From Gammaproteobacteria bacterium (GTDB taxonomy: Bacteria > Pseudomonadota > Gammaproteobacteria > SZUA-140), in contig QIGV01000179.1 of the NCBI GenBank assembly GCA_003230085.1, positions 1 through 55,928 on the forward strand: a DNA stretch of 55,928 nucleotides, read 5' to 3'. This document shows positions 27,553 to 38,204 of this stretch, one piece after another; position 1 is the first letter of the stretch, and the number at the start of each line of letters is the position of its first letter. The position numbers were made by a program, and so were the translations under genes. Under the pieces are notes generated by a model. It had not been told where the DNA came from, searched no databases, and saw only the letters and a program-made list of their open reading frames with translations.

Positions 27553-28305
27553 TCAATATGAATCGATCTGTCCATAGACCTGTTGGCTGTTGTACTTCAT
27601 GACTGGAAATAAAATTGCTGGCCAGATACTTGTTTTTTCCATCCAGCGGCCATCATATTTTATTTTGAGTGATTGATTGGTCCTCATTCGATTACCCACC
27701 AGTATATGACTCTTAGCATTATTTATTTCCAGCATTGTAGGCTCAAATTCTAAAGATAAGGTATGGCATAATGCCGGTACTGTATCTTCAGGATTCAGGA
27801 CTAATGGTTCATATCCTATTCTGATGGTATCAGGTGCGGCTGCCTGGAAATTTCTGTTTTTCCAGTACCAGCGCAGCATATTATTTGGTGTGATCCTGCT
27901 AGACAAAGATACAGACCAGCCTCGTACATCGCGTACTATCCTGATAGATTTGCAGTCTGAAATATTACTCAAGACATGTAATGATTCAAGGTGTTTTGAG
28001 CTATCTATTGGAATTTTACCAGGAAAATATTTTGAAAATATTTTTAGAAATATGGTGTAGCGGACCTCCAGACTATCAGATTTCTGCTGATCAATAGCTT
28101 CCATGACGGCAGGCCAAAATTCACATTTTCCACATGTACAACGATTGTAGTGGTCTTCTATCCACTGGCGGTTTTGTCCCACTTTAATAACATTGTCAAC
28201 TTCACCAACGGCTATACAAGAACTATGTGTGCCTAAAATCATGTCAAGTATCGTTGTGCCCGATCTGTGCAGGCCTGTGATAAATATAGTGCGTATTTTT
28301 GACAT
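27553..28305 (-). CDS. Sulfotransferase with CxCG..CxFW insertion; last gene of the NRPS operon
   Basis: GLHRSGTTILD, VGE, CTCGKCEFW, IDSSK, RDVRGW, YE.L, GNRMR. Starts 13 bp after the PPTase stop. Confidence 0.8.
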   Translation of the reverse strand: MSKIRTIFITGLHRSGTTILDMILGTHSSCIAVGEVDNVIKVGQNRQWIEDHYNRCTCGKCEFWPAVMEAIDQQKSDSLEVRYTIFLKIFSKYFPGKIPIDSSKHLESLHVLSNISDCKSIRIVRDVRGWSVSLSSRITPNNMLRWYWKNRNFQAAAPDTIRIGYEPLVLNPEDTVPALCHTLSLEFEPTMLEINNAKSHILVGNRMRTNQSLKIKYDGRWMEKTSIWPAILFPVMKYNSQQVYGQIDSY

Positions 28306-28318
28306 TATTAGATTGCCT

Positions 28319-29086
28319 TTATTTGTCCCATCCCCAATATTTTACCTGTGCTATTTGTCCGGGTACAACTGCAGCAGCAATATAATCAAGGTGTGGTCTT
28401 ATATTAGCTATTGAATGGCAGTTGTGAGGTAAAGACTGATGAATAGTTTTTAGTAAGGCAGCAGGTTTATTCGGGGTCAAAGTGACATCGAATGTGCTCA
28501 AAGGAATTGCCAGACCTTGGCCCAGTGCCTTGATGTAAGCCTCTTTTCTTGTCCAGCAATTATAAAATGCTATTAGTTGTTGCTGAGAGGGAAGAGATCG
28601 TAGCTCAGAGATTTCATTTTCAGAGAAATATTGTATCGCTATGTTTTCATAATCAATATTGGCATTAATGTGCTCAATATCAATGCCGATTTCTCTATTG
28701 AGTACAATGGCAATGAGTGCCAGATTATTAGAATGTGATAGATTGAATTGAATGCCGGTGTTGTACAGATTACCCTTCAATGCAGGTTTCCCGTGTGTAT
28801 TATATTCAAATTGAATCGATTCAGGTTTCCTGAGAAGATAGCGTCCGAGTACACTGCGTAGAATACTGTGTCTTATGATAAAGCGAGTTTTGTCTTTTTC
28901 GAAATGGAATTTATCGGCCCGGTATTTTTCTTCCGGACTGATTATTTTAGAATGCCCTGTCAAATCGCAGTTAATATTTTCGAAATTGATACGCCAGACA
29001 TGGATTTCATCAGGCGATATTGGAATGTTACCCGATGGCGGTGTTTTGAAATTATCAGGATCCGGTGTATTACTATTTAATGACAT
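28319..29086 (-). CDS. Sfp-type 4'-phosphopantetheinyl transferase
   Basis: GKP, FNLSHS, IGIDIE, WTRKEAYIKALGQG. Confidence 0.95.
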   Translation of the reverse strand: MSLNSNTPDPDNFKTPPSGNIPISPDEIHVWRINFENINCDLTGHSKIISPEEKYRADKFHFEKDKTRFIIRHSILRSVLGRYLLRKPESIQFEYNTHGKPALKGNLYNTGIQFNLSHSNNLALIAIVLNREIGIDIEHINANIDYENIAIQYFSENEISELRSLPSQQQLIAFYNCWTRKEAYIKALGQGLAIPLSTFDVTLTPNKPAALLKTIHQSLPHNCHSIANIRPHLDYIAAAVVPGQIAQVKYWGWDK

Positions 29087-29173
29087 CGTAATTCCTGGTA
29101 GGGCTTATATACCAAGCTTTCCTGTGTCATATCCGTAAAATCGTGATTTTGATAAAAGAGAGCAGTAGCTTGT

Positions 29174-36059: not shown

Positions 36060-36125
36060 GTATCAAGATCTCCTGGTGTATATTGTGTTTTTGGCTTTGT
36101 GCAGTTATTAATATAGTGCTTCCTG

Positions 36126-38036
36126 TCAGGAAGACTTTCCATCCAGTTCATTGAGTAACCGCTCGGCATCTTCGTCAGAAAGTGATTCCAGTTCAGCGAG
36201 GATATCGGCAAGGTCCGAGGTATCCTTATTTTCTGTTGCCTGAGTGATTTCGGCAGTGAGTTCAGCTATGGATGGTTTTCTAAACAGTGTAATAATCGAC
36301 ATGTCCATCTGGAATGTGGAGCGGATTCTTGAAACAGCCTGAGTAGCGCGGATGGAGTCTCCACCCAGAGCAAAGAAGTTGTCATTCATGCTGACCTGCT
36401 CGACGTTCAAGATCTCTTTAAATATACCGGCAACGGTTATTTCCAATTCGCTTTCTGGCGCAATAAATTCGCGCTGCAGTTCCTGGGAAAATTTTTCTGC
36501 CAATCCGATGCGCTGTATTTTTCCGGTAGGACCTTTGGGGATCGCATCAACGATCAATAACTGGCTCGGAATTTTGAAGTCGGCCAGTTTCCCGAAGAGA
36601 TAGCCGCGCAACATAGGCTCGGTCAGTTCTGTATCTTTTCGTAATATGACTGCAGCAGCGACATCCTCACCGAGGGAAGGATGGGGCAGGGAGAAAGCAA
36701 CGGCCTGAATGACGTCAGGGTGTTCGAGGAGCACTTCATCGATTTCCCGTGGTGAGACTTTTTCGCCGCCGCGGTTAATGATCTCCTTCAAACGCCCTGT
36801 AATGAACAGATAGTCTTCATTGTCGAGATAACCCTGGTCTCCGGTTCGAAACCAGCCATTGGTGAATGCGGTGGCATTGGCCTCATCATTGTTTTCATAA
36901 CCTGCTGTGATGTTATTTCCTCTGATGACAATTTCACCGGTTTTACCTGAGGAAAGTAGCTTCCCCGCGTCGTCCATGATGGCGACGTCAGGCCCTGCTG
37001 CAATGCCAGCTGATCCGGGCTTCTGTTTATAGGGAGGTAGTGGGTTACTGGCCATCTGATGCGCAGCCTCGGTCATGCCATAGGACTCGAGCACAGGTAC
37101 TTTGAAAGCATTTTCCAAATCGGACATGACCTGGGGTGGCAGGGCCGCTGAGGATGAGCGGATAAAACGCAACTGGTGATTTTCGAGTACCTGTTTATGG
37201 TCAGATAGATTTGACAATATTGTTTGATGGATCGTGGGTACTGCGGTATACCAGGTAGGTCGATATGTTTGCATGAGCTCAAAAAAGTCAGATGCTGCAA
37301 ACCCTGTGGTGCACACTGTTCGCCCCCCAGCTGCAAGCGAAGAAAGTACACCTGCAATCAGGCCGTGGATATGAAACAGCGGCATGACATTAAGGCAGCA
37401 GTCATTGCCGCTCAAATTCAAGGTGAGACCGATATTATGTGCCGATGCGCAGATATTCTGGTGTGTCAGAGGGACAATTTTGGGGCGTGAGGTGGTGCCT
37501 GATGTATGAAGTACCAGGGCGATATCATCGGCTTCAGCATAGCCACCCTGGTTGATATCTGCATTTGCATCACTTGTCAGTGAAAAGATGCCTGCCTCGG
37601 CTTCACTGGAAGGTGAAAGTTCGATGACCGGGATATTTCGCTCTGCCGCGACCTCTCGTGCCGGAGAATCCATACCCGACTGAATAAGAAGTACCTTGGC
37701 ATTCAGGTCCGAGAGATAAAATTCAAATTCACTTTTACGGTAGCCGGGATTAAGCGGTGCGCAGGTAGCGGCGGCACCTATGGCAAGAAACGCAACGGCC
37801 ATTTCCGGGCCATTAGGCAGCACCATAGCAACCCGATCACCACGACCCACACCCATGCTCTTCAACTGCGAGACGACCTCACTGATATAGCTGCTTAATA
37901 TTTGATAGTTAAGCGGTTTTCTAGATGGCACTTCAATTGCTATCGCGTCAGGAGTCTGCCTTGCATGAGCGTCAATTAGGCGGTATAGCGAATCATGAGA
38001 GGGGACTCCATAGTCGTAATTTAATGCTTGACTCAT
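36126..38036 (-). CDS. Oxalate--CoA-ligase-like (AAE3/PCS60-type) adenylation domain fused to a carrier (T) domain and an acidic C-terminal helix
   Basis: LHTSGTTSRPK.VPLTH, MPLFHIHGL, TWYTAVPTIHQ, LRFIRSSSAAL, ESYGMTEAAHQMASNPLP, PKGPTGKIQR; T domain DNFFALGGDSI; tail LAELESLSDEDAERLL. Start 38036 has an upstream GGAGA; the ORF track start is 38099. Confidence 0.88.
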   Translation of the reverse strand: MSQALNYDYGVPSHDSLYRLIDAHARQTPDAIAIEVPSRKPLNYQILSSYISEVVSQLKSMGVGRGDRVAMVLPNGPEMAVAFLAIGAAATCAPLNPGYRKSEFEFYLSDLNAKVLLIQSGMDSPAREVAAERNIPVIELSPSSEAEAGIFSLTSDANADINQGGYAEADDIALVLHTSGTTSRPKIVPLTHQNICASAHNIGLTLNLSGNDCCLNVMPLFHIHGLIAGVLSSLAAGGRTVCTTGFAASDFFELMQTYRPTWYTAVPTIHQTILSNLSDHKQVLENHQLRFIRSSSAALPPQVMSDLENAFKVPVLESYGMTEAAHQMASNPLPPYKQKPGSAGIAAGPDVAIMDDAGKLLSSGKTGEIVIRGNNITAGYENNDEANATAFTNGWFRTGDQGYLDNEDYLFITGRLKEIINRGGEKVSPREIDEVLLEHPDVIQAVAFSLPHPSLGEDVAAAVILRKDTELTEPMLRGYLFGKLADFKIPSQLLIVDAIPKGPTGKIQRIGLAEKFSQELQREFIAPESELEITVAGIFKEILNVEQVSMNDNFFALGGDSIRATQAVSRIRSTFQMDMSIITLFRKPSIAELTAEITQATENKDTSDLADILAELESLSDEDAERLLNELDGKSS

Positions 38037-38204
38037 AGCGCGAACTTTCTCCAAAAATGTTGTTGGGCCATTGATACAAAACCAGTTAAGGGTAGGCATT
38101 GATGGTATGGACGTTTAGTACTCCACACATAGGGTGTGCTAGAGAATAATTATATCAAAATCGATCCCCAACATCACAACTGCCACCTCTTCCATATGCC
38201 TGTT

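What the first reader, a model, noticed from the sequence alone, without database searches (positions are those of the whole stretch)
27553..38099. Candidate carrier-tethered oxalate-to-formyl NRPS assembly line inside a sulfated-polysaccharide locus
Seen: six co-oriented genes with gaps of 66, 75, -8, 87 and 13 bp encoding an oxalate-CoA-ligase-like A domain fused to a T domain, an RRCGH-type ICL-superfamily lyase, a C-A-T-TE NRPS, an OXC/HACL-like ThDP enzyme, an Sfp PPTase and a sulfotransferase, flanked on both sides by GT, sulfotransferase and export genes. Established: oxaloacetate acetylhydrolase makes oxalate, AAE3/PCS60-type ligases adenylate oxalate, and oxalyl-CoA decarboxylase gives formyl-CoA. 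Inference: this CoA-based oxalate route has been moved onto a phosphopantetheinyl carrier (OAA -> oxalate -> oxalyl-S-T -> formyl-S-T, or a 2-hydroxyacyl by carboligation). The NRPS C domain would condense that unit onto an amino acid and the TE would release or transfer it, perhaps onto the glycan. That would be a folate-independent formylation or oxalylation route, and I do not recognise it as a described pathway.
Basis: partly seen in the sequence, partly recalled or inferred. Interest (0 to 1): 0.92.

Follow-up and report, generated by a model that had tools for sequence, protein, structure and literature searches.

The report
Oxalate-loading NRPS with carrier-linked thiamine enzyme
A small peptide-synthetase operon that seems to load oxalate onto a carrier protein, reshape it there with an unusual thiamine enzyme and attach it to histidine; the same loader-plus-enzyme pair recurs in many uncultured bacteria and I found no description of it.

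Summary

- **Loading domain:** its closest solved relatives are plant and yeast oxalate-CoA ligases. It keeps the two oxalate-specific pocket residues.
- **Thiamine (ThDP) enzyme:** it belongs to one long-branched clade of the oxalyl-CoA decarboxylase / 2-hydroxyacyl-CoA lyase (OXC/HACL) family. All 42 members whose upstream gene is known follow such an adenylation-thiolation (A-T) gene. None of the 14 stand-alone relatives lies inside the clade.
- **Clade traits:** it lacks the C-terminal tail that covers CoA in HACL enzymes. It also has Gln in place of the cofactor-activating Glu in 51 of 52 loci.
- **Amino acid:** the NRPS specificity code is DSALIAEVWK, a published histidine code.

Work on the carrier is therefore well supported. 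Whether the product cap is formyl, 2-hydroxyacyl or oxalyl is open, because the active-site markers are HACL-like rather than OXC-like. The polysaccharide link is limited to this genus. The sulfotransferase is missing from the nearest relative.

Verdict: a new variant of NRPS loading chemistry, of high interest, with unproven chemistry.

The parts
36126..38099 (-). Loading protein: AAE3-type (oxalate-CoA-ligase-like) adenylation domain fused to a thiolation (carrier) domain, with a C-terminal acidic tail (LSDEDAERLL)
   Evidence: Pfam domains at residues 43-401, 452-527 and 556-617. Best solved relatives are oxalate-CoA ligases: 5ie0 443 bits, 6qjz 428, 8aff 376; the next family scores 254 bits. 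Pocket map against the residues named in PMC8905533.
36249..36434 (-). Thiolation domain of the loading protein (residues 556-617; GGDS serine 582)
   Evidence: PP-binding 1.5e-12. S582 is invariant in alignment A1.
35214..36059 (-). ICL/PEP-mutase-superfamily C-C lyase of the petal-death-protein/OAH/DMML branch. Proposed supplier of oxalate from oxaloacetate (inferred).
   Evidence: PEP_mutase 2.4e-33. PDB: 1zlp 126.8 bits, DMML 98.2, OAH 94.2, MICL 84.5. RRCGH at residues 119-123; Ala206 where PrpB and PDP have Glu; Ser229 where PrpB has Pro. Lies next to A-T genes at WIN, L088, L027, L009, L014 (remnant) and G258; in L145 it lies directly upstream of a clade ThDP gene.
30915..35138 (-). Single-module NRPS C-A-T-TE with an N-terminal LSPEKRALL motif. 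The A domain is predicted to activate histidine.
   Evidence: Pfam domains. HHIIIDG in the C domain, GGHS in T and GFSFG in TE. Specificity code DSALIAEVWK at residues 701, 702, 705, 744, 775, 777, 801, 809, 810 and 1001 equals a His signature in PMC12283262.
29174..30922 (-). Divergent OXC/HACL-family ThDP enzyme of the A-T-linked clade. It has an N-terminal LSPAKRALL extension and a short C-terminus.
   Evidence: TPP_enzyme_N/M/C. PDB: HACL/S 327 bits, OXC 218-249 bits. Clade and synteny; tail; Phe144-Gln145.
30680..30682 (-). Codon of Gln81, at the column of the canonical ThDP-activating glutamate
   Evidence: The window has RHQQ where E. coli OXC has RHEQ and HACL/S has RNEQ. Gln in 51 of 52 clade loci and Glu in 31 of 31 rows outside the clade.
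28319..29086 (-). Sfp/HetI-type phosphopantetheinyl transferase that would prime both carrier domains
   Evidence: ACPS 1.1e-18 and AASDHPPT_N 1e-11. HetI model 209 bits, below its cut-off of 370. Also present in L088 and L027.
27553..28305 (-). Sulfotransferase, co-oriented and 13 bp downstream of the PPTase. Probably belongs to the polysaccharide locus rather than the NRPS pathway.
   Evidence: Sulfotransfer_3 3e-13. It is one of six sulfotransferases in the locus. No homologue in the syntenic relative L088.

Best explanation
The first five genes form a one-module NRPS pathway that makes an N-capped histidine.

1. The ICL-superfamily lyase supplies oxalate, most simply by hydrolysing oxaloacetate (inferred).
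2. The AAE3-type A domain adenylates oxalate and loads it on its own carrier domain as oxalyl-S-T (inferred from homology and the conserved pocket).
3. The PPTase primes the carriers.
4. A specialised ThDP enzyme works on the tethered thioester instead of a CoA ester. It decarboxylates oxalyl-S-T to the ThDP-bound C1 carbanion.
5. [quoted passage not shown]
6. The C domain joins this unit to His-S-T, and the TE releases N-formyl-histidine.

In other lineages the same loader and ThDP enzyme cap longer peptides.

Shown here: gene content, family membership, the strict A-T / ThDP synteny, the clade-specific sequence changes, and the His code. Inferred: every chemical step.
For: **A domain**
- It scores 443, 428 and 376 bits against three solved oxalate-CoA ligases. 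The next family scores 254 bits.
- Ser289 and His319 of AtAAE3, described as conserved only in oxalyl-CoA synthetases (PMC8905533, passages), are Ser317 and His347 here. His214, His216, Met314 and Lys500 are also kept.
- The pocket signature HIHSSGMHK is shared by 42 of 50 stand-alone ligase loci, 18 of 25 fusions without ThDP, and 22 of 40 fusions with ThDP. In that last group 7 rows are truncated.

**ThDP enzyme tied to the carrier**
- I examined 35 metagenome loci whose ThDP enzyme is at least 45% identical. In 29 an AAE3-type A-T gene lies directly upstream. The other 6 have 615 bases or fewer of upstream sequence.
- In a tree of 85 rows, one branch (SH-aLRT 100, length 0.76) holds 42 A-T-linked rows and 11 rows of unknown context. 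It holds none of the 14 rows with more than 2.5 kb of upstream sequence and no A-T gene. The A-T label needs only 1 change on the tree.
- Clade members end 8-9 residues after the conserved VDP. Stand-alone relatives carry a basic tail of 22-25 residues.
- In HACL/S the C-terminal peptide folds over acyl-CoA and contacts it (PMC11271303, passages).
- The ThDP enzyme and the NRPS both begin with an LSP(A/E)KRALL motif. The A-T protein ends in LSDEDAERLL.
- The ThDP/Mg motif residues D475 and N502 are invariant in the 20 sequences of A2.

**Lyase as supplier**
- The subfamily is rare: 2 of 400 other same-phylum genomes at E<=1e-40.
- It lies next to A-T genes in the window, L088, L027, L009 (two copies), L014 (remnant) and G258. 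In L145 it lies directly upstream of a clade ThDP gene; that contig does not reach an A-T gene. Some of these loci have a ThDP gene and some do not.
- Its closest solved relative is petal death protein. From recall, that enzyme hydrolyses oxaloacetate.

**Histidine:** code DSALIAEVWK matches a published His signature.

**Formyl preferred over 2-hydroxyacyl**
- No recurrent aldehyde-supplying family appears among the 25 listed families of 64 flanking ORFs from 14 loci.
- Formyl-carrier species do exist in nature: formyl-ACP in lactacystin biosynthesis (PMC11730586, passages).
- A domains can load hydroxy or keto acids directly, so only formyl would need such a detour (inference).
Against: **Against formyl**
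- The ThDP enzyme is nearer to HACL/S (327 bits) than to OXC (218-249 bits).
- It has Phe-Gln where OXC has Tyr-Glu. It has no Tyr at the OXC Tyr483/497 position. Its short tail has no counterpart of OXC Ser553/568.
- In M. extorquens OXC, replacing that Tyr or Ser cut formyl-CoA formation 20- to 50-fold, and Y497A raised carboligation 5-fold. Human HACL barely decarboxylates oxalyl-CoA (PMC7154664, passages).
- The canonical Glu is Gln throughout the clade. From recall, that change slows ordinary ThDP enzymes by orders of magnitude.

**Against other parts of the reading**
- Three pocket residues differ from AtAAE3: Val to Ile, Cys to Ser and Ala to Gly.
- The lyase lacks the Glu present at that column in PrpB, PDP and 4iqd. 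It is below every NCBIfam cut-off.
- 25 A-T fusion loci have no ThDP gene within 10 kb, so the loaded unit can evidently be used unmodified.
- First C domains downstream of the loader do not split cleanly by ThDP presence.
- No chemistry was measured.
Confidence: 0.4

Rival explanations
1. Decarboxylative carboligation. The ThDP enzyme decarboxylates oxalyl-S-T. It then adds the resulting carbanion to an aldehyde or ketone from general metabolism instead of protonating it. This gives a 2-hydroxyacyl-S-T (glycolyl, lactyl, glyceryl and the like), and the NRPS joins it to histidine.
For: - HACL-type Phe-Gln is present, and the OXC protonation residues Tyr and Ser are absent.
- The OXC Y497A variant shifts about 400-fold towards carboligation. 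OXC and HACL both accept many aldehydes (PMC7154664).
- The clade's nearest solved relatives are HACL/S condensing enzymes (PMC11271303).
- From recall, glyoxylate carboligase, a carboligase, is the known natural ThDP enzyme without the canonical Glu.
Against: - No aldehyde-forming enzyme recurs among the 25 listed families of flanking ORFs at 14 loci.
- The lyase tracks the A-T gene, not the ThDP gene.
- Common hydroxy acids could be loaded directly by an A domain, so the detour lacks an obvious reason (inference).
Confidence: 0.25
2. N-oxalyl-histidine is the product. The ThDP protein does not transform the tethered unit. It would be a weakly active or inactive adapter, or an editing enzyme that clears mis-made oxalyl thioesters.
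For: - Gln replaces the cofactor-activating Glu in 51 of 52 clade loci.
- 25 A-T fusion loci work without any ThDP gene nearby.
- C domains with and without ThDP are intermixed in a poorly resolved tree.
Against: - The ThDP/Mg motif residues D475 and N502 and the active-site Phe144-Gln145 are invariant in A2.
- The gene keeps a fixed place between loader and NRPS in 29 of 29 loci with enough upstream sequence.
- A pseudoenzyme would not be expected to keep a cofactor site over such a long-branched clade (inference).
Confidence: 0.12
3. The pathway decorates the sulfated polysaccharide. The TE, or another enzyme, transfers the capped histidine to a sugar of the polymer instead of releasing it. 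This is compatible with any of the cap chemistries.
For: - The operon sits inside a locus with six sulfotransferases, seven glycosyltransferases, YjbH, Wza and Wzz.
- The same placement, between the same flanking genes (55-70% identity), is kept in the relative L088/G401.
Against: - Among 64 flanking ORFs of 14 other A-T+ThDP loci, no glycosyltransferase, sulfotransferase or export family is among the 25 listed families.
- The ThDP gene was found in 1 of 24 other same-family genomes and 0 of 16 same-class genomes. That pattern fits an acquired island.
- The co-oriented sulfotransferase is missing in L088.
Confidence: 0.15
4. The loaded acid is not oxalate but another small acid such as glyoxylate, malonate or glycolate. 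The lyase is then an ordinary methylisocitrate-type or alkylmalate-type lyase whose keto-acid or acid product feeds the pathway differently.
For: - Three pocket residues differ from the plant enzyme.
- The best NCBIfam hits, all below cut-off, are FadD7-family and malonyl-CoA synthase models for the A domain and prpB for the lyase.
- The lyase lacks a Glu conserved in PrpB and PDP.
Against: - The two oxalate-specific residues are kept, and the pocket equals that of the 50 stand-alone homologues.
- The grass-pea enzyme discriminates against malonate by four orders of magnitude and shows no activity with glycolate or lactate (PMC8905533).
- The partner enzyme family acts on oxalyl or formyl thioesters.
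Confidence: 0.1

Closest known systems
Oxalate catabolism through CoA esters: AMP-forming oxalyl-CoA synthetase (plant AAE3, yeast Pcs60, M. extorquens OXS) plus oxalyl-CoA decarboxylase
   Same: The same two enzyme families in the same order. The oxalate-specific pocket residues are kept. The ThDP enzyme has the three-domain OXC/HACL architecture.
   Different: - The ligase is fused to a carrier domain and feeds an NRPS.
- The ThDP enzyme has lost the CoA-covering tail.
- It has Phe-Gln for Tyr-Glu and Gln for the canonical Glu.
- It occurs only beside A-T genes.
2-Hydroxyacyl-CoA lyases/synthases (HACL/S; PDB 8vza-8vzk, 6xn8)
   Same: Best solved relatives (315-327 bits). They share the Phe-Gln pair and lack the OXC tyrosine.
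   Different: HACL/S use CoA thioesters held by a C-terminal covering peptide and keep the canonical Glu E50 (PMC11271303). The clade here has neither.
Folate-dependent formyl units in assembly lines: formyl-ACP in lactacystin (LctF plus LctA AT1), and the formylation domain of linear gramicidin synthetase (recalled)
   Same: A formyl-level starter unit sits on, or is passed to, a carrier and is then condensed (PMC11730586).
   Different: There the formyl comes from 10-formyl-tetrahydrofolate. Here it would come from oxalate through ATP and ThDP, and no formyltransferase is in the operon.
beta-ODAP biosynthesis in grass pea (oxalyl-CoA synthetase plus an acyltransferase making an N-oxalyl amino acid)
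   Same: An AAE3-type enzyme activates oxalate for N-acylation of an amino acid (PMC8905533, abstract and passages).
   Different: That is a plant pathway that uses free oxalyl-CoA with no carrier, no NRPS and no ThDP step.
Glyoxylate carboligase (recalled, no call): the known natural ThDP enzyme without the canonical glutamate
   Same: It also lacks the activating Glu at the same motif position. It scores 190-192 bits against the window protein.
   Different: It has Val rather than Gln, acts on free glyoxylate, and is not linked to carriers.
Fungal oxaloacetate acetylhydrolase and plant petal death protein
   Same: Same superfamily branch. They share the Cys-containing gating loop (RRCGH here), the Asp/Glu metal ligands, and Ser at the column where PrpB has Pro.
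   Different: Identity is only about 30%. Ala replaces a Glu conserved in PDP and PrpB. This is a bacterial subfamily found next to A-T genes.

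Membership tests
Oxalate-CoA ligase (AAE3/Pcs60/OCS) family | ANL fold with closest similarity to characterised oxalate-CoA ligases | tested here: met
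   5ie0 443 bits, 6qjz 428, 8aff 376. The next family scores 254 bits.
Oxalate-CoA ligase (AAE3/Pcs60/OCS) family | Oxalate-specific Ser289 and His319 (AtAAE3 numbering) | tested here: met
   Ser317 and His347. Their role is stated in PMC8905533. They are kept in nearly all of 116 loci.
Oxalate-CoA ligase (AAE3/Pcs60/OCS) family | Remaining pocket residues Val215, Cys288 and Ala313 identical | tested here: not met
   Ile244, Ser316 and Gly341. The same changes occur in the stand-alone bacterial homologues.
Oxalate-CoA ligase (AAE3/Pcs60/OCS) family | Free CoA as thiol acceptor (stand-alone enzyme) | tested here: not met
   A PP-binding domain is fused at residues 556-617.
Oxalate-CoA ligase (AAE3/Pcs60/OCS) family | Oxalate-dependent adenylation | not testable with these tools
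   Needs a PPi-exchange or intact-mass assay.
OXC/HACL family of ThDP enzymes | PYR, R and PP domains, and the ThDP-Mg motif | tested here: met
   TPP_enzyme_N/M/C. D475 and N502 are invariant in A2.
OXC/HACL family of ThDP enzymes | Canonical cofactor-activating glutamate | tested here: not met
   Gln81. Gln in 51 of 52 clade loci; Glu in 31 of 31 outside rows and in E. coli OXC. E50 in HACL/S (PMC11271303).
OXC/HACL family of ThDP enzymes | C-terminal covering peptide that contacts acyl-CoA | tested here: not met
   The tail is 8-10 residues after VDP/IDP, against 22-25 residues in stand-alone relatives. Contacts R545, K546, Q548 and W552 are reported for HACL/S.
Oxalyl-CoA decarboxylase proper | Active-site Tyr-Glu pair and the Tyr/Ser that protonate the intermediate | tested here: not met
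   Phe144-Gln145. There is no Tyr after the GI of the NN-G-I motif. Roles from PMC7154664. NCBIfam OXC models score 342.9 and 308.2, below their cut-offs of 557 and 739.4.
2-Hydroxyacyl-CoA lyase/synthase | Phe-Gln pair and closest overall similarity | tested here: met
   But the NCBIfam HACL model scores 288, below its cut-off of 600.
Oxaloacetate acetylhydrolase / petal-death-protein lyases (ICL/PEPM superfamily) | Gating loop with catalytic Cys (K/R-K/R-C-G-H) and Asp/Glu metal ligands | tested here: met
   RRCGH at 119-123, D84/D86/D87 and E113/D114, aligned to 1zlp and PrpB.
Oxaloacetate acetylhydrolase / petal-death-protein lyases (ICL/PEPM superfamily) | Active-site Ser marker of OAH (recalled from Joosten 2008 and Han 2007, papers not held) | tested here: inconclusive
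   Ser229 aligns with Ser of PDP and with Pro of PrpB and 4iqd. I could not confirm from a paper that this is the marker column.
Oxaloacetate acetylhydrolase / petal-death-protein lyases (ICL/PEPM superfamily) | Glu at the PrpB Glu188 column | tested here: not met
   Ala206 in the window. His or Leu in the other A-T-linked copies.
PEP mutase (phosphonate biosynthesis) | Score above the PEP mutase model cut-off, and no gating-loop Cys | tested here: not met
   TIGR02320 scores 68.1, below its cut-off of 319.55. Cys121 is present.
Type I NRPS module | C (HHxxxDG), A (ten-residue code, Lys517), T (GGxS) and TE (GxSxG) | tested here: met
   TIGR01733 scores 454.5, above its cut-off of 317.4. Code DSALIAEVWK.

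The most novel reading that the evidence does not exclude
A natural branch of the OXC/HACL thiamine enzymes has left CoA and works on NRPS carrier domains. It has Gln in place of the glutamate found in nearly all ThDP enzymes. With an oxalate-loading A-T protein, it turns oxalate into a formyl-anion equivalent on the assembly line. That would give a folate-independent N-formyl cap, or a one-carbon-extended 2-hydroxyacyl cap, on peptides made by uncultured bacteria. Named records place it in at least six major groups: Cyanobacteria, Planctomycetota, Nitrospirales, Myxococcota/Deltaproteobacteria, Binatia and Burkholderiales.
Probability: 0.45. Interest if true: 0.88.

Novelty: new variant of a known kind. 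Interest (0 to 1): 0.78.

Why it matters
- **Starter units:** if the chemistry holds, oxalate would be a new NRPS starter substrate. It would also be the first OXC/HACL-type ThDP enzyme seen acting on a carrier-tethered thioester.
- **One-carbon biocatalysis:** OXC and HACL are central tools of synthetic C1 assimilation. A natural clade that works without the CoA lid and without the canonical glutamate would inform both mechanism and engineering.
- **Genome mining:** the A-T / ThDP pair is a simple, specific marker for a widespread family of uncharacterised peptide clusters. Their N-terminal cap cannot be predicted by current rules.
- **This organism:** it predicts a small histidine derivative, made from a cluster embedded in a sulfated-polysaccharide locus.

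Tried and rejected
**Readings rejected**
- Phosphonate pathway (PEP mutase plus ThDP decarboxylase). The lyase keeps the gating-loop Cys and scores 68 bits against a 319.55 cut-off for PEP mutase. The ThDP enzyme has the full three-domain OXC/HACL layout.
- Riboswitch or other RNA element. There are 0 Rfam matches at gathering score in the whole window.
- Promoter and terminator scan of 27000-39000. It found 22 promoter-like sites against 22.5 expected and 18 terminator-like sites against 11.7 +/- 3.2, so it is not informative.

**Tests that gave no answer**
- C-domain tree. I asked whether C domains split by ThDP presence: 35 rows, 5 label changes against 10.2 in shuffles, but 16 of 32 inner branches are unresolved and the two groups come from different samplings. 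Inconclusive.
- Empty-site test in the congener G402. The matching contig ends inside the DnaJ-like gene, and the flanking glycosyltransferase was not found with this query. Inconclusive.
- Complex prediction of the ThDP enzyme with the T domain and tail of the loader. No verdict: score 0.11 against a mark of 0.32, and the controls were not run.
- Sequencing runs. No RNA holder is listed, and I did not lay reads.

**Information I could not get**
- Literature. The five of my ten searches aimed at prior art found no paper describing an oxalate-loading A-T protein or an OXC/HACL enzyme in an NRPS cluster. MIBiG and antiSMASH were not available.
- OAH and PDP marker papers were not held, so the OAH serine marker rests on recall.
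- Supplements were closed. Supplementary Table S3 and Figs S1-S2 of PMC11271303 could bear on the covering-peptide and Glu numbering.

Full report
**Observation.**
- Pfam confirms an A-T didomain protein, a PEP-mutase/ICL-superfamily protein, a C-A-T-TE NRPS, a three-domain ThDP enzyme, an Sfp-type PPTase and a sulfotransferase.
- None of the non-NRPS proteins reaches an NCBIfam equivalog cut-off, so none is an ordinary member of a named family.
- The surroundings are a polysaccharide locus from about 6.9 to 47.3 kb.
  - It holds six sulfotransferases (counting the operon's own) and seven glycosyltransferases.
  - It also holds YjbH, a Wza-like exporter and a Wzz-like protein.
- The window is a whole 55.9-kb contig of a 2.9-Mb genome bin that is 81% complete.

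**The loader.**
- The A domain scores 443, 428 and 376 bits against the solved oxalate-CoA ligases of Arabidopsis, grass pea and yeast. It scores 254 bits against the next family.
- The grass-pea paper (PMC8905533, passages read) lists the oxalate pocket of AtAAE3. [quoted passage not shown]
- In the HMMER alignment these are Ser317 and His347. His214, His216, Met314 and Lys500 are also kept.
- Val215, Cys288 and Ala313 are Ile, Ser and Gly here.
- The resulting signature HIHSSGMHK is the commonest in all three kinds of locus:
  - 42 of 50 stand-alone bacterial homologues;
  - 18 of 25 A-T fusions without a ThDP gene;
  - 22 of 40 fusions with one (7 of those rows are truncated).
- A bacterial AMP-forming oxalyl-CoA synthetase has been characterised (PMC7154664). 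I did not test whether it belongs to this stand-alone group.
- Oxalate is therefore the best-supported substrate, by homology only.
- The fusion family is large. All of the best 120 hits carry A plus T domains. Of these, 11 add a TE, 2 add a C domain and 2 add hexapeptide repeats.

**The ThDP enzyme: the main result.**
- Its nearest solved relatives are 2-hydroxyacyl-CoA lyases/synthases (315-327 bits). Oxalyl-CoA decarboxylases follow at 218-249 bits. It is 29% identical to E. coli OXC.
- Synteny in named genomes. Among 29 A-T fusion loci, four have this enzyme directly after the A-T gene: L006, L022, L027 and L057.
- Synteny in metagenomes. I scanned metagenome contigs with an alignment of its relatives and laid the six window proteins on the 80 loci.
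  - Of the 35 loci at 45% identity or more, 29 have an AAE3-type A-T gene immediately upstream. Most of these also have an NRPS downstream.
  - The other six have 615 bases or fewer of upstream sequence. One of them, L109, has 615 bases without a detectable match and stays unresolved.
  - Most loci at 42-44% identity have no A-T gene.
- Tree. The tree has 85 rows and is rooted on E. coli OXC.
  - One branch (SH-aLRT 100, length 0.76) holds 42 A-T-linked rows and 11 rows of unknown context.
  - It holds none of the 14 rows that have more than 2.5 kb of upstream sequence and no A-T gene.
  - The A-T label maps as a single change.
  - Several rows are near-duplicates, so 42 is not 42 independent events. 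The clade itself is clear.

**Three sequence traits mark the clade.**
1. *Short C-terminus.*
   - The protein stops 8-10 residues after the conserved VDP/IDP.
   - Stand-alone relatives, including the two sister rows, carry a basic tail of 22-25 residues.
   - In HACL/S the C-terminal peptide folds over bound acyl-CoA and contacts it through Arg, Lys, Gln and Trp (PMC11271303, passages).
2. *Gln for the canonical Glu.*
   - The motif RH-E-Q is RH-Q-Q here. The Glu bonds to N1' of ThDP and is E50 in HACL/S.
   - Gln is found in 51 of 52 clade loci (one is truncated) and in the window.
   - Glu is found in 31 of 31 rows outside the clade and in E. coli OXC.
   - From recall, the only well-known natural exception to this Glu is glyoxylate carboligase.
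   - The ThDP/Mg ligands D475 and N502 remain invariant, so cofactor binding is probably kept.
3. *N-terminal extension.*
   - Many members, the window's included, begin with an LSPxKRALL motif.
   - The NRPS begins with the same motif, and the A-T protein ends in an acidic LSDEDAERLL tail.
   - I read these as docking elements. That reading is an inference, and a complex prediction gave no verdict.

Taken together, these traits make action on the tethered thioester much the best reading.

**Which product?**
- OXC and HACL share one intermediate, the ThDP-bound hydroxymethyl-thioester carbanion (PMC7154664).
- The clade has HACL-type Phe-Gln where OXC has Tyr-Glu. It lacks the OXC Tyr and Ser that deliver the proton.
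- Removing those residues in OXC cut formyl-CoA formation 20- to 50-fold, and Y497A raised carboligation 5-fold. Human HACL hardly decarboxylates oxalyl-CoA.
- This argues against a simple OXC-like reaction and keeps carboligation to a 2-hydroxyacyl unit as a serious rival.
- I still rank formyl first, for two reasons.
  - No aldehyde-supplying family recurs among the 25 listed families of 64 flanking ORFs at 14 loci.
  - Hydroxy acids can be loaded directly by A domains, whereas formate apparently cannot (inference).
- A formyl-carrier species has a precedent in lactacystin biosynthesis, where it is folate-derived (PMC11730586).
- The first C domains downstream of the loader do not separate cleanly by ThDP presence. 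That neither supports nor excludes a different donor.

**The lyase.**
- Its best solved relatives are petal death protein (126.8 bits), a Bacillus PEPM-family protein (110.9), dimethylmalate lyase (98.2), oxaloacetate acetylhydrolase (94.2) and methylisocitrate lyases (about 80).
- It keeps the Cys gating loop (RRCGH, residues 119-123) and the metal ligands.
- It has Ser229 where PrpB has Pro, and Ala206 where PrpB, PDP and 4iqd have Glu.
- The subfamily is rare: 2 of 400 other genomes of the same phylum at E<=1e-40.
- It lies next to AAE3-type A-T genes in the window, L088, L027 (Planctomycetota), L009 (two copies), L014 (a truncated remnant) and G258. In L145 it lies directly upstream of a clade ThDP gene, on a contig that does not reach an A-T gene.
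- One further copy, in G353, lies next to a different adenylating enzyme (28% identity).
- It occurs with and without the ThDP gene, so its role goes with the loader. Supply of oxalate from oxaloacetate is the simplest reading, and it is untested.

**The NRPS.**
- The ten-residue specificity code is DSALIAEVWK. My first reading of position 278 was wrong. I corrected it when the codes of the other domains became canonical only with the shifted column.
- This exact string is given as a His-activating signature in PMC12283262 (passage read).
- The relative L088 has the same code.
- Other loci cap domains whose codes look like Gly, Ile, Ser, Ala and Leu (labels recalled). Many continue into multi-module NRPSs. 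The loader and ThDP pair is therefore a general N-cap device.

**Context.**
- L088, a 79.5-kb metagenome contig, corresponds to G401 of the same genus.
  - It carries A-T, ThDP, lyase, NRPS and PPTase at 73, 56, 84, 59 and 36% identity.
  - They sit between the same glycosyltransferase and sulfotransferase genes on one side and the same DnaJ-like, YjbH and Wza genes on the other (55-70% identity).
  - It has no homologue of the 250-aa sulfotransferase, and the ThDP gene lies in the usual place after the A-T gene.
- The ThDP gene was found in 1 of 24 other genomes of the family and in 0 of 16 of the class.
- The own genome holds no second AAE3-like ligase or close OXC/HACL homologue in its assembled part.
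- The cluster therefore looks like an island acquired by this genus and lodged in the polysaccharide locus. A functional link to the polymer is possible but has no support outside the genus.

**Novelty and verdict.**
- The five prior-art searches among my ten literature searches found no description of an oxalate-loading A-T protein or of an OXC/HACL enzyme in an NRPS cluster. MIBiG could not be consulted.
- I rate the finding as a new variant of a known kind: an NRPS loading module with a trans-acting tailoring enzyme.
- My odds:

| Claim | Probability |
|---|---|
| The ThDP enzyme acts on the unit held by the A-T protein | about 0.8 |
| That unit is oxalate-derived | about 0.7 |
| The amino acid is His | about 0.8 |
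| The cap is formyl | about 0.4 |
| The cap is 2-hydroxyacyl | about 0.25 |
| The cap is unmodified oxalyl | about 0.12 |

- The last three rows are overall odds: they are the confidences given for the best explanation and its rivals, not odds conditional on the rows above.

Noticed in passing
window 899-6412 (-): An 1837-aa ORF with fibronectin-III, PKD-like, Ig-like and GH85_C-like repeats borders the polysaccharide locus. It is probably a large secreted or surface protein.
   Followed up: no
window 8739-9716 (+): A 325-aa protein matches the N-terminal domain of glucosamine inositolphosphorylceramide transferase 1 (GINT1_N, 215.7 bits). That family name is unexpected in a bacterial polysaccharide locus.
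   Followed up: no
window 15674-17032, 18647-19885, 19959-21782: Three ORFs of 412-607 aa inside the polysaccharide locus have no Pfam match above a curated cut-off.
   Followed up: no
window 38577-40559 (+): A 660-aa protein has only a DnaJ domain (residues 75-138). It is transcribed divergently from the NRPS operon, and the same neighbour (48-49% identity) is kept in L088/G401.
   Followed up: partly
G000 contig C15, 3352-7908: The genome holds a second NRPS: a 2471-aa open frame with two condensation domains.
   Followed up: no
L009 4882-9344: An 824-aa AAE3-type A-T protein is flanked on both sides by paralogous copies of the lyase, with no ThDP gene and no C domain nearby.
   Followed up: partly
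L014 11076-11426: A truncated remnant of the lyase (the first ~75 residues plus the C-terminal end) sits between the A-T gene and the NRPS.
   Followed up: partly
L095, L097, L099, L105, L108: Several clusters hold extra ~660-aa adenylating proteins with non-amino-acid-like codes (for example N-SVRSSMLK) beside the AAE3-type loader. This suggests more than one loading protein per pathway.
   Followed up: no
homologues of window 36126-38099: AAE3-type A-T proteins also occur fused to a thioesterase (11 of the 120 listed), a condensation domain (2) or hexapeptide-repeat acyltransferase domains (2).
   Followed up: no
window 36126-38099 (-), first ~35 residues: Similarity to homologues starts near residue 35. 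An identical database protein of 581 aa covers only 88% of the ORF, so the true start codon may lie downstream of 38099.
   Followed up: no
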